Positions 24,311 to 64,000 of a DNA stretch of 64,000 bases are shown here, piece after piece. The stretch is from the human T2T-CHM13v2.0 reference genome, Homo sapiens. The stretch lies in the NCBI RefSeq assembly GCF_009914755.1, contig NC_060932.1; one strand, written 5' to 3'. The stretch's first letter is position 1. Every line of letters begins with the position of its first letter. The notes beneath the pieces were generated by a model. The model had not been told where the DNA came from. It searched no databases and saw nothing but the letters and a program-made list of their open reading frames with translations. Both the position numbers and the translations under genes were made by a program.

Positions 24311-25539
24311 AACTCTCCTTTTTCTCTGTTGTTAAGCTCTTTAAAAAAAAAAAAAAAAAAAAGCCCCATCGCAAGGCTACTTAGAACTTCAGCTGGTAGG
24401 GTTCTTTTAACTTTTTAAAGTAGATTTCCTTCCTCCAGAACATAGCGTTATCATTATTGTGGCAAGAAAATGTGCAGTTCAGGTAATAGCCAGAACACTG
24501 TCTCTGAAACAATCACTGACCCTGTGGCTGATCTAGTTATTCATGCCAACTTTTTTTCCTCCAGGTTGAATTTTCTCCCAGGCCCCAAATATCCATTTTC
24601 TTTCCCCTGGAGAGAATCTCAGGGTACTTTGGTTAATGGAAATAGATGGCGTCAGAGAGATGAGGAGAGGCCATTCAATCTTCATTGAGTTTGGCTGGGA
24701 CACCAGGTGACTTACACTGGACTCAGAAATTCAGACCCTATCCCATCAAGAATGAGCAACCACAGTCAGAGAGAGCTCTTTCAGAGGAATTTGCAAGCAT
24801 TCATGTTTCACCATTTAGCAATATAAGTAAACTGTCTTCTGGGAAATGTTGACACTAAATATACTGTGATATAAAAACATTGGTTAAGAGTCTCAAATTG
24901 CTAATGCTATTTTTCCTTCCCAGGAGAAATTTTAAAATCAGTAATTTTGATGATAGTTAGCGACTTCAGCCTTATCAAGGGGAATTTGTCCACAGAACTC
25001 CCAGGTTTAAGTTTCAGAAGCAATCATAACTGTTGATTCCCCTCTAGTAAATGCTAAACTATAGTAGAGTCCCACGTCTTACTTGGGTCAATAGGTGTTT
25101 ATGCAGGATTTGCCCTAGAAACAGATTAAATTCAAGAATCTGGTAAAGGTGACTATTGAAAGGAAATCCTTGAAACAATTATTGTTAAGCAACAGGTTTA
25201 AGAGGCAAGTTTTAGGTTTAAACAACGGTTGAACAATGGAAGATTAAAATGATGAAGTCTTTTGAATATTGTGATATTATTTTTCCTCAATTCTCCCAAG
25301 TTTCTTATTACATGCTTTTGGATGGGCTTTTGCTTTTAACCGAGTATGTCAATACTAAAGCACCAATACGGCAGTTCCTTCCAAATGTGACCATACAGTC
25401 TTCTGTTTTTAAAATGCACATATTCTTCATGTATAATTGATATTCACACCATATTATCTACTCATGTCTTGCATTTGTCTTTTTAATATTCTAGAGTCTA
25501 TATACCTTCTTATGTACTTTTACAATCAAGACCCCTCAG

Positions 25540-26220
25540 AAAGTGAAGTTTTTCTTTTTTTTTTTAGTTGTGAATATATACATTTGTTTATTTTAGATAT
25601 TTCAAGGATTGAAGAAGATGTGATTTTTACATCTTCCATCTAAATTTAATATAACTTATAGGAATCTAAATGTTTTAACTACTTTAGGAATCTGTTTGAC
25701 ATTATCATCTGGAGTAAACTAAGCCTTTCTTCTCCTAAATATATACCCCCCAAAAAACCCTTGCATATGTTTAGCAAGATATATTTTTCTTTTTTATTTT
25801 ATTATTATTATACTTTAAGTTTTAGGGTACATGTGCACAATGTGCAGGTTAGTTACATATGCATACATGTGCCATGCTGGTGTGCTGCACCCATTAACTC
25901 GTCATTTAGCATTAGGTATACGTCCTAATGCTATCCTGCCCCCCTCCCCCCACCCCACAACAGTCCCCAGAGTGTGATGTTCCCCTTCCTGTGTCCATGT
26001 GTTCTCATTGTTCAATTCCTACCTATGAGTGAGAACATGTGGTGTTTGGTTTTTTCTCCTTGTGATAGTTTACTGAGAATGATTTCCAATTTCATCCATG
26101 TCCCTACAAAGGACATGAACTCATCATTTTTTATGGCTGCATAGTATTCCATGGAGTATATGTGCCACATATACTTACCTGGCAGGGGAGATACCATGAT
26201 CACAAAAGTGAAGTTTTTCT
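25540..26220 (-). mobile_element. Composite L1-mediated insertion: TSD, inverted U1 fragment, L1PA3/4-like 3' end, polyA, 3' transduction, polyA, TSD
   Basis: An identical 16-mer AAAGTGAAGTTTTTCT at 25540-25555 and 26205-26220 brackets all parts. L1 3' end ~25790-26170 (-). T11 at 25555-25565. AATAAA (-) at 25587-25592. Confidence 0.9.
26171..26204 (+). pseudogene. U1 snRNA 5' fragment (nt 1-33/34), non-functional retrocopy
   Basis: ATACTTACCTGGCAGGGGAGATACCATGATCAC matches U1 nt 1-33 as recalled. It has no U1 promoter context and no Sm site. Confidence 0.93.
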
Positions 26221-58739: not shown

Positions 58740-59756
58740 ATGGGGAAAAAACAGAACAGAAAAACTGGAAACTCTAAAAAGCAGAGCGCCTCTCCTCCTC
58801 CAAAGGAACGCAGTTCCTCACCAGCAACAGAACAAAGCTGGATGGAGAATGACTTTGACGAGCTGAGAGAAGAAGGCTTCAGATGATCAAATTACTCTGA
58901 GCTACTGGAGGACATTCAAACCAAAGGCAAAGAAGTTGAAAACTTTGAAAAAAATTTAGAAGAGTATATAACTAGTATAATCAATACAGAGAAGTGCTTA
59001 AACGAGCTGATGGAGCTGAAAAGCAAGGCTCGAGAACTACATGAAGAATGCAGAAGCCTCAGGAGCCGATGCGATCAACTGGAAGAAAGGGTATCAGCAA
59101 TGGAAGATGAAATGAATGAAATGAAGTGAGAAGGGAAGTTTAGAGAAAAAGGAATAAAAAGAAATGAGCAAAGCCTCCAAGAAATATGGAACTATGTGAA
59201 AAGACCAAATCTACGTCTGATTGGTGTACCTGAAAGTGATGGGGAGAATGGAACCAAGTTGGAAAACACTCTGCAGGATATTATCCAGGAGAACTTCCAC
59301 AATCTAGCAAGGCAGGCCAACGTTCAGATTCAGGAAATACAGAGAACGCCACAAAGATACTCCTCGAGAAGAGCAACTCCAAGACACATAATTGTCAGAT
59401 TCACCAAAGTTGAAATGAAGGAAAAAATGTTAAGGGCAGCCAGAGAGAAAGGTCAGGTTACCCTCAAAGGGAAGCCCATCAGACTAACAGCGGATCTCTC
59501 GGCAGAAACCCTACAAGCCAGAAGAGAGTGGGGGCCAATATTCAACATTCTTAAAAAAAAGAATTTTCAACCCAGAATTTCATATCCAGCCAAACTAAGC
59601 TTCATAAGTGAAGGAGAAATAAAATACTTTACAGAGAAGCAAATGCTGAGAGATTTTGTCACCACCAGGCCTGCCTTACAAGAGCTCCTGAAGGAAGCAC
59701 TAAACATGGAAAGGAAAAACCGGTACCAGCCGCTGCAAAATCATGCCAAAATGTAA
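58740..59756 (+). pseudogene. L1 ORF1p, 338 codons in frame, nonsense at R49 and R130
   Basis: ATG at 58740 and TAA at 59754-59756 (1017 nt). CGA>TGA at 58884-58886 and 59127-59129. C-terminus RYQPLQNHAKM. Confidence 0.93.
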
Positions 59757-59804
59757 AGACCATCGAGACTAGGAAGAAACTGCATCAACTAACGAGCAAA
59801 ATAA

Positions 59805-63647
<3,843 letters not shown>

Positions 63648-64000
63648 ACAATGAGATCACATGGACACAGGAAGGGGAATATCACACTCTGGGGACTGTT
63701 GTGGGGTGGGGGGAGGGGGGAGGGATAGCATCGGGATATATACCTAATGCTAGTTGACGAGTTAGTGGGTGCAGCACACCAGCATGGCACATGTATACAT
63801 ATGTAACTAACCTGCACAATGTGCACATGTACCCTAAAACTTAAAGTATAATAAAAAATAAAAATAAAAAAAATTAAAAAAAGAAAGAATAAATATTGAG
63901 AAAATGTGAATGCTTCTCAAAGTAATTTTTAAGTTTCACATAATTCTAATCAAAATTCCATTTTGCTATTTTTAAAACTATGGAAAATTTTTCTGAAGAA

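What the first reader, a model, noticed from the sequence alone, without database searches (positions are those of the whole stretch)
25540..26220. One insertion, three sources: inverted U1 snRNA 5' end fused to an L1 3' end that carries a 3' transduction
Seen: a perfect 16-bp direct repeat (AAAGTGAAGTTTTTCT; 25540-25555 and 26205-26220) encloses, in L1-sense (minus) order, antisense U1 nt 33->1, ~365 nt of L1PA3/4-like 3' end, an A-tail, ~224 nt of unique DNA with AATAAA, and A11. The flank reads TTCT/AT, resembling an L1 endonuclease site. Known: classic snRNA/L1 chimeras (mostly U6) are co-directional, and twin priming normally inverts part of the same L1 RNA. Inference: here the second nick primed cDNA on a different RNA, U1 (twin priming in trans), and the two cDNAs were joined at U1 nt 1. 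U1 may have been bound to the L1 read-through transcript in the RNP. Repeat annotation would likely show this as unrelated pieces.
Basis: partly seen in the sequence, partly recalled or inferred. Interest (0 to 1): 0.85.

Follow-up and report, generated by a model that had tools for sequence, protein, structure and literature searches.

The report
Known inverted U1/L1 chimeric insertion
This is a real single retrotransposon insertion that joined a backwards piece of U1 spliceosomal RNA to an L1 tail carrying a short stretch copied from chromosome 3, but this kind of chimera, and this very locus, are already described in print.

Summary
A perfect 16-bp direct repeat (25540-25555, 26205-26220) brackets five pieces. 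In minus-strand order they are antisense U1 nt 34->1, 375 nt of L1 3' end, a 6-A tail, about 222 nt of single-copy DNA with AATAAA, and a 10-11 A tail.

I traced the single-copy piece to one other place in the genome, chr3:89312063-89312282 (215/220 identical). No sense L1 adjoins it there. It is therefore either a 3' transduction from a source L1 now absent, or less likely an RT template switch.

The target site matches U1 nt 34-40 at 6 of 7 bases, which fits priming of the second nick on U1 RNA (twin priming in trans).

This is not new. Doucet et al. 2015 described inverted, 3'-truncated U1/L1, U2/L1, U5/L1 and U6/L1 chimeras and explained them by twin priming with target/snRNA complementarity. 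Law & Burns 2026 (Table S2) list an L1PA3(-)/U1(+) pair at hg38 chr8:69222286-69222710 with the same geometry.

My own scan found 15 of 67 U1 5' ends truncated at nt 33-45, and only this one carries an L1. The idea that U1 was bound to the L1 transcript has no support. Novelty: already known; only the chr3 origin of the 3' piece is an added detail.

The parts
25540..25555 (.). Left copy of the target-site duplication, AAAGTGAAGTTTTTCT. Its 3' end (TTCT/AT in the empty site) is the first-strand nick that primed on the poly(A).
   Evidence: Perfect 16-bp direct repeat. Chance expectation is 0.09 per window.
25556..25565 (-). Terminal poly(A) tail of the inserted RNA (T10 on the + strand; one more T is shared with the duplication).
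   Evidence: Sequence read.
25566..25567 (-). Two bases (CT on the minus strand) between the chr3-derived piece and the tail. They do not match chr3, which has TG there.
25568..25789 (-). Single-copy 3' extension copied from chr3:89312063-89312282 (minus strand there). AATAAA lies at 25587-25592, with 21 nt between it and the tail. It is either a 3' transduction or a template-switched RNA.
   Evidence: There are only two copies in the genome, this one and chr3. Identity is 215/220 over 25568-25787. The G at 25789 and the A-run also fit chr3 with a 1-nt indel.
25790..25795 (-). Short internal A-tract (A6) ending the L1 piece.
25796..26170 (-). 5'-truncated L1 3' end: the last 52 codons of ORF2 (stop at 26012-26014) plus the 3' UTR. 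RepeatMasker calls it L1PA3 according to Law & Burns.
   Evidence: 92% identical to window L1 63479-63874. That element has Exo_endo_phos and RVT_1. 95-97% identical to the best genomic copies. Table S2 row.
26171..26204 (+). U1 snRNA nt 1-33 (identical) plus nt 34 (G in U1, A here, after C), antisense to the L1. On the minus strand it reads as a consensus 5' splice site.
   Evidence: alignment to genomic U1 from L008; Rfam U1.
26205..26220 (.). Right copy of the target-site duplication. Its first bases resemble U1 nt 35-45, which is the microhomology for priming on U1.

Best explanation
This was one L1-mediated insertion in an ape ancestor. ORF2p nicked the + strand at TTCT/AT. The T-rich 3' end annealed to the poly(A) of an L1PA3 read-through transcript and was extended through the 222-nt downstream piece, the A6 tract and 375 nt of L1 (shown by anatomy; the order is inferred). 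The transcript had ended at a cryptic AATAAA about 220 nt downstream of a source L1 on chr3. The minus strand was cut 16-17 nt away. Its 3' end (...CACTTT(C)) paired with the loop and 3' arm of U1 stem-loop I (nt 34-40) and was extended to U1 nt 1. This is twin priming on a second RNA (inferred). The two cDNA 3' ends were then joined at U1 nt 1 and the L1 breakpoint. Local similarity there is 5 of 7: L1 has TAAGAAA where the antisense U1 has TAAGTAT. The source L1 on chr3 is absent from this assembly, most simply because it was a polymorphic allele that was lost. The element has no known function.
For: A perfect 16-bp duplication encloses all pieces, with a poly(A) at one end only. U1 nt 1-33 match 33/33, in inverse orientation, directly abutting the L1 breakpoint. 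The target GAAAGTG (25539-25545) matches U1 nt 34-40 GAAGGTG at 6/7, a level reached by 81 of 63994 window 7-mers (0.13%). The right copy as it reads now matches 5/7, reached by 1.2%. The U1 break lies in the hairpin loop of stem-loop I (structure line). 15 of 67 U1 5' ends in the genome end at nt 33-45. 9 of the other 14 have directly flanking duplications scoring 11 or more, against 0 of 210 mismatched control pairs. The 3' piece has a single parent locus with continuous unique flanks. Homology there starts at an endonuclease-like TTTT/C site and stops after AATAAA plus 21 nt, and T/GT-rich sequence follows on chr3. In print, Doucet 2015 reports exactly 1 U1 copy associated with a retrotransposon, 3'-truncated, inverted to L1 and with a TSD, explained by twin priming. 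Law & Burns 2026 Table S2 has the row L1PA3(-) 381 bp + U1(+) 44 bp at chr8:69.22 Mb, with both the proximity and alignment-prediction flags at 1.
Against: No orthologous empty site could be examined here, so the single-event reading rests on the duplication and on the published alignment flag. No sense-oriented source L1 adjoins the chr3 parent. The nearest is a 1-kb 5'-truncated fragment 6.5 kb upstream that is only 91% identical. The internal A-tract is only 6 A, short for a source tail. Base 26204 is A, not the G expected from U1 nt 34. Two bases before the tail do not match chr3. The L1-side nick TTCT/AT is only a degenerate endonuclease site. That hg38 chr8:69222286-69222710 is this locus is inferred from identical geometry and a constant offset of 429,511; it was not lifted over.
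Confidence: 0.7

Rival explanations
1. This is the same single event with twin priming on U1, but the 222-nt piece is not a transduction. TPRT began on an independent polyadenylated chr3 transcript, and ORF2p switched template after about 222 nt onto the 3' end of an L1 RNA. Three separate RNAs would then have been copied in one insertion.
For: There is no source L1 at the chr3 parent. The switch point is an A-run shared by both templates (GAAAA). The internal A-tract is only 6 A.
Against: The piece starts exactly at an endonuclease-like TTTT/C site and runs to the next AATAAA, the pattern expected of read-through from an L1 inserted there. From general knowledge of the field, 3' transductions are common and parents lacking the L1 are expected when source alleles are lost. 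Law & Burns use the same lost-allele reasoning for another chimera. No evidence of a promoter or transcript on that strand was available.
Confidence: 0.18
2. Two independent insertions occurred. A solo U1(1-34) insert with its own 16-bp duplication came first, like the 14 others found. An L1 then landed exactly between the left repeat and U1 nt 1 without making a duplication of its own.
For: Solo U1(1-~35) inserts with 9-17 bp duplications are common (11 of 14, 9 of them strong). The left repeat followed by U1 'AT' would recreate the same TTCT/AT nick site.
Against: It needs an L1 hit at one exact nucleotide and a blunt, duplication-free integration. There is no second pair of repeats around the L1. 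The published cross-species alignment flags the two pieces as contemporaneous.
Confidence: 0.04
3. The juxtaposition arose by chance or by DNA-level rearrangement, with no retrotransposition logic. The 16-mers would be coincidental.
For: None specific.
Against: Only 0.09 such repeats are expected per window, and here the repeat sits exactly at the poly(A) end and at the U1 break. All pieces have RNA-type ends: U1 nt 1, poly(A), and AATAAA spacing.
Confidence: 0.01

Closest known systems
Inverted snRNA/L1 chimeras by twin priming (Group IV 'twin' pseudogenes of Doucet et al. 2015, Mol Biol Evol 32:1815; PMC4476161)
   Same: The snRNA is 3'-truncated and inverse to a 5'-truncated L1. Both lie inside one TSD pair. 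The endonuclease site reads better in L1 orientation. There is complementarity between the snRNA and the insertion site, and the break lies in a single-stranded loop. Their single U1/L1 case is most probably this locus.
   Different: Nothing in kind. Their text as read does not mention a 3' extension on the L1. Their Fig. 1B and Table S1, which hold coordinates, were not readable here (figure; PDF).
Law & Burns 2026 catalogue of LINE-1 chimeric insertions (Cell Genomics; PMC13174262, Table S2 sheet U1)
   Same: The row chr8:69222286-69222666(-) L1PA3 + chr8:69222667-69222710(+) U1 (consensus 8-49) reproduces the window geometry. BLAST carries L1 similarity 7 nt into U1 (to 26177), and U1 similarity runs to 26221 with a 2-nt insertion, giving 381 + 44 bp. 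They interpret antisense chimeras as twin priming.
   Different: Their table gives no TSD for U1 rows and does not record the chr3-derived 3' piece. The other 3 of 4 U1 rows are sense-oriented chr6 duplicates.
Classical twin priming (Ostertag & Kazazian 2001; known to me from citations in the papers read and from recall)
   Same: Both involve two primings at the two nicks of one target, an inverted 5' segment, and microhomology at priming and joining.
   Different: There both cDNAs copy the same L1 RNA. Here the second template is U1.
Heavily 3'-truncated snRNA pseudogenes (Doucet Group III; Denison & Weiner Class IV)
   Same: They use the same U1 break region (nt 30-35 in my 11 solo cases) and the same target/snRNA overlap.
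   Different: Those are solo inserts with the TSD directly on both sides of U1. Here an L1 cDNA fills the other side.
L1 3' transduction (Moran, Goodier, Pickeral and co-workers; recalled)
   Same: The layout is L1 3' end, short A-tract, unique DNA with its own AATAAA, a second poly(A), all inside the TSD.
   Different: The parent locus in this assembly has no L1.
Co-directional U6/L1 chimeras (Buzdin 2002/2003; Garcia-Perez 2007; cited in the papers read)
   Same: An snRNA is fused to the 5' end of a truncated L1 within one TSD.
   Different: Those are sense-oriented, carry full-length U6, and arise by template switch or RNA ligation. That does not apply here.

Membership tests
Inverted snRNA/L1 twin-priming chimera (Doucet 2015, Group IV 'twin') | snRNA and L1 lie in opposite transcriptional orientation between one pair of TSDs. 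| tested here: met
   U1 is on + at 26171-26204, L1 is on - at 25796-26170, and the 16-bp repeats lie outside both.
Inverted snRNA/L1 twin-priming chimera (Doucet 2015, Group IV 'twin') | The snRNA starts at its 5' end and is 3'-truncated in a single-stranded segment. | tested here: met
   U1 nt 1-33/34 are present. The break lies in the hairpin loop of stem-loop I in the Rfam consensus structure.
Inverted snRNA/L1 twin-priming chimera (Doucet 2015, Group IV 'twin') | There is complementarity between the target site and the snRNA at the truncation point. | tested here: met
   GAAAGTG versus U1 GAAGGTG is 6/7, a level reached by 0.13% of window 7-mers.
Inverted snRNA/L1 twin-priming chimera (Doucet 2015, Group IV 'twin') | There is an L1 endonuclease-type cleavage site when read in L1 orientation. 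| tested here: inconclusive
   TTCT/AT matches 4 of 6 positions of TTTT/AA. The U1-side nick CTTT/CT matches 3 of 6. It is weakly better on the L1 side.
Inverted snRNA/L1 twin-priming chimera (Doucet 2015, Group IV 'twin') | Both pieces arrived together (empty site in outgroups). | not testable with these tools
   No primate genomes are held. Law & Burns Table S2 sets found_by_msa_prediction = 1 for the matching hg38 row.
LINE-1 (L1PA) 3' end | Sequence homology to the ORF2 C-terminus and 3' UTR of an element encoding APE-type endonuclease and RT. | tested here: met
   92% identical to window 63479-63874, and that element hits Exo_endo_phos and RVT_1. The 52-aa ORF2 tail alone gave no Pfam hit.
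L1 3' transduction | The extra unique DNA lies between the L1 A-tract and a second poly(A), with its own polyadenylation signal, inside the TSD. | tested here: met
   A6, then 222 nt, with AATAAA 21 nt before the A10-11 tail.
L1 3' transduction | The parent locus carries the source L1 immediately upstream of the transduced DNA. | tested here: not met
   The chr3 parent has unique DNA upstream. The nearest sense L1 is a 1-kb truncated fragment 6.5 kb away at 91% identity. A lost polymorphic source remains possible.
Co-directional snRNA/L1 template-switch chimera (U6/L1 type) | The snRNA is in the same orientation as L1, and its 3' end joins the L1 breakpoint. | tested here: not met
   U1 is inverted, and its nt 1, not its 3' end, abuts the L1.

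The most novel reading that the evidence does not exclude
One target-primed event stitched three independent RNAs. Reverse transcription would have begun on a polyadenylated chr3 transcript and switched to an L1 RNA near its tail, while the second nick was primed on U1 snRNA. That would show template switching and trans twin priming acting in the same integration. A linked reading concerns the shared U1 break in the stem-loop I loop, which by recall is the U1-70K binding loop and which recurs in 15 of 67 U1 5' ends. It would mean that ORF2p samples U1 molecules lacking that protein.
Probability: 0.17. Interest if true: 0.4.

Novelty: already known. Interest (0 to 1): 0.15.

Why it matters
It matters little beyond bookkeeping. 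The locus is a clean textbook-quality example of twin priming on a heterologous RNA. It shows that the second nick in L1 integration can recruit an abundant nuclear RNA by a few bases of pairing. That mechanism and this example are already published. The added detail is that the L1 carries a 3' piece whose chr3 parent lacks an L1. This gives a concrete place to look for a lost ancestral source element in ape or pangenome assemblies. As a side effect, the antisense U1 5' end plants a consensus 5' splice site on the minus strand, but no gene is annotated in the window.

Tried and rejected
- **Pfam on the 52-aa ORF2 tail of the inserted L1:** no hit, because it is too short. I used DNA identity to the window's RT/EN-bearing L1 instead.
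- **TSD 16-mer and its reverse complement in supplements:** no occurrences in those of Law & Burns or of Doucet. In the Doucet search one of two files was not searched, and Table S1 is an unreadable PDF. The Law & Burns U1 sheet has no TSD columns, so I found the row by reading the sheet.
- **Source L1 in 23.2 kb around the chr3 parent:** I found only an antisense 213-nt L1 fragment with its own TSD, and a sense 1-kb truncated fragment 6.5 kb upstream. I rejected both as sources.
- **More U1/L1 inverted chimeras:**
  - For 5 other short U1 fragments (the three with no flanking TSD, L035, L037 and L069, plus L045 and L065, whose flanking TSDs were weak), I searched 600 nt upstream for a distant TSD. 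None was found. Longer partners were not tested.
  - The scan only sees U1 5' ends with at most 2 mismatches in nt 1-27.
- **U1 bound to the L1 read-through RNA:** considered and rejected. Nothing in the sequence requires it, and solo inserts use the same priming site.

Full report
**Observation.**
- The 16-mer AAAGTGAAGTTTTTCT occurs at 25540-25555 and 26205-26220 without mismatch.
- First-order Markov simulations of the window give 0.09 exact 16-mer direct repeats within 1500 bp per window; 6 of 100 simulations had any.
- Apart from AT-rich tandem arrays, the real window has only a handful.

On the minus strand the interval contains, in order:
- the complement of U1 nt 34 to 1 (26204-26171);
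- 375 nt of L1 3' end (26170-25796), comprising the last 52 codons of ORF2 with stop at 26014-26012, then the 3' UTR;
- an A6 tract (25795-25790);
- about 222 nt of other DNA (25789-25568) with AATAAA at 25592-25587;
- two bases, CT;
- a tail of 10 A, or 11 counting the base shared with the repeat.

**Identity of the pieces.**
- *U1.* I took the U1 sequence from the genome itself. Six chr1 loci found with Rfam RF00003 carry an identical 164-nt U1. Window 26171-26203 equals its nt 1-33. Beyond that the alignment continues into the repeat: A for G34, AA, A for G37, GTG, a 2-nt insertion, then GTTTT. Infernal also aligned U1 through the repeat.
- *L1.* The L1 piece is 92% identical to the 3' end of the window's own 4.9-kb element (63479-63874). 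Two ORFs of that element hit Exo_endo_phos and RVT_1. It is 95-97% identical to the 39 best other genomic copies scored out of 2986 candidates.
- A Pfam scan of the 52-residue ORF2 tail alone found nothing.

**The third piece.** A search of the window's own assembly with 25567-25789 found two places only: itself and chr3:89312063-89312282, minus strand.
- BLAST gives 215/220 identities.
- On chr3 the sequence continues as unique DNA on both sides, with no poly(A) and no flanking repeat. chr3 is therefore the parent and chr8 the RNA-derived copy.
- Homology begins at ...TTTATG|AAAATATACC. On the other strand this reads TTTT/C, an L1-endonuclease-like site.
- Homology ends after AATAAA plus 21 nt. 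T/GT-rich sequence follows on chr3, as expected of a usable cleavage site.
- There is no sense-oriented L1 next to it. Within 23.2 kb the only L1 matches are an antisense 213-nt fragment with its own duplication, and a sense 1-kb 5'-truncated fragment 6.5 kb upstream that is 91% identical to the inserted L1.
- The '3' transduction' therefore has the right anatomy but fails the test of a source element at the parent. A source allele that never fixed is the simplest rescue. A template switch from an independent chr3 transcript to L1 RNA is the alternative.
- Five differences in 220 nt suggest an insertion of roughly great-ape age. This is my estimate, with a wide error. It is consistent with the L1PA3 call in Law & Burns' table.

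**Mechanism.** The nick that primed on the poly(A) is on the + strand after TTCT (TTCT/AT).
- The other nick leaves a minus-strand 3' end ...CACTTT(C). The target bases GAAAGTG (25539-25545) match U1 nt 34-40 GAAGGTG at 6 of 7. Only 81 of 63994 window 7-mers do as well.
- The right-hand copy now reads AAAAGTG (5 of 7). The odd base follows a C, so a CpG transition is the likely cause.
- The U1 break lies in the hairpin loop of stem-loop I (structure line).
- At the other junction, U1 nt 1 abuts the L1 breakpoint without extra bases. The L1 sequence that would have followed (TAAGAAA in the window's L1 copy) resembles the antisense U1 end (TAAGTAT) at 5 of 7, which may have helped the two cDNA ends to pair.
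- All this fits twin priming with U1 as the second template.

**Genome-wide context.** A pattern search for U1 nt 1-27 with up to 2 mismatches found 67 sites, against 0 for the reversed control pattern. I fetched all of them and aligned each to U1.
- 15 of 67 end at nt 33-45.
- Of the 14 others, 9 have a duplication of 14-17 bp directly flanking the fragment, with scores of 11 or more. None of 210 mismatched control pairs scored above 6.
- 2 more have weak duplications, and 3 have none.
- In the 11 with a duplication, the second copy starts at U1 nt 30-35.
- None of the 5 weak or blank cases has a distant duplication within 600 nt upstream. The window locus was recovered by the same test.
- The stem-loop I loop is thus a recurrent internal priming site, and this locus is the only one of the 15 with an L1 inside the duplication.

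**What is in print.**
- *Doucet et al. 2015 (PMC4476161; sections 5, 6, 8 read in full, passages of 11).*
  - They characterised 33 U1 copies, of which 1 is associated with a retrotransposon and has a TSD, and 10 are 3'-truncated.
  - They state that the U1/L1, U2/L1 and one U6/L1 chimera, like four U5 cases, are 3'-truncated and inverse to L1 within the TSD.
  - They attribute them to twin priming aided by complementarity between the snRNA and the insertion site, with truncations in single-stranded loops.
  - They describe the solo truncated class likewise.
- *Law & Burns 2026 (PMC13174262; passages, and Table S2 parts 1-2 read).*
  - They list four U1 rows. One is chr8:69222286-69222666(-) L1PA3 with chr8:69222667-69222710(+) U1, consensus 8-49. 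It is flagged both by proximity and as a contemporaneous insertion in cross-species alignments.
  - This is 381 + 44 bp, exactly what results if the L1 alignment is carried 7 nt into U1 (as BLAST does) and the U1 alignment through the repeat to nt 49 with the 2-nt insertion.
  - The offset to T2T is a constant 429,511.
  - I take this to be the same locus. It was not lifted over.
  - They too read antisense chimeras as twin priming.
- Neither source, as far as I could read, mentions the chr3-derived piece. Doucet's Fig. 1B and Table S1 were not readable.

**Verdict.** The mechanism proposed is the accepted one, and both the class and the locus are already known. The only addition is the chr3 parent of the 3' piece and the absence of an L1 there.

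Noticed in passing
T2T loci L035-L040, L045, L050, L056, L058, L060, L065, L068, L069 (e.g. C3:69403399-69403425, C8:73435473-73435499, C23:126436291-126436317): Fourteen other U1 5' fragments end at nt 33-41. Nine have strong and two have weak directly flanking 9-17 bp duplications whose second copy starts at U1 nt 30-35. None has a poly(A) or an L1. This is the known heavily 3'-truncated snRNA pseudogene class, with a sharp hot spot in the stem-loop I loop.
   Followed up: partly
L052 and L053 (C16:3095999-3096025 and C16:3108645-3108671): Two duplicated copies of U1 nt 1-69 are each directly preceded, on the same strand, by ...CTTAATAAAACCTGCTT. This looks like the end of a polyadenylation-signal-bearing transcript joined to U1 nt 1. 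The origin is unexplained.
   Followed up: no
window 26171-26181, minus strand: The antisense U1 5' end reads CAGGTAAGTAT, a consensus 5' splice site, so every inverted or solo U1 5' fragment plants a strong donor on the opposite strand. No gene is annotated in this window.
   Followed up: no
L002 about 1975-2190 and 1840-1970 (chr3 parent region): A roughly 200-nt L1 3' fragment, antisense to the transduced piece, has its own duplication AAGGACTTACTCTTT. Next to it is a tandem duplication of about 65 nt.
   Followed up: no
window 58978-63908: This is a 5'-truncated L1 on the + strand. Its ORF2 is split into stop-free stretches of 688 and 539 codons (59805-61871, 61872-63491). Exo_endo_phos and RVT_1 are in the first, and the rest of RVT_1 is in the second.
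   Followed up: partly
window 16402/17621 and 52959/53277: Two other non-tandem exact 16-mer direct repeats (ACCTCATGAATGGGAT and AGAAATATAATTATAT) may mark further insertions or repeat copies.
   Followed up: no
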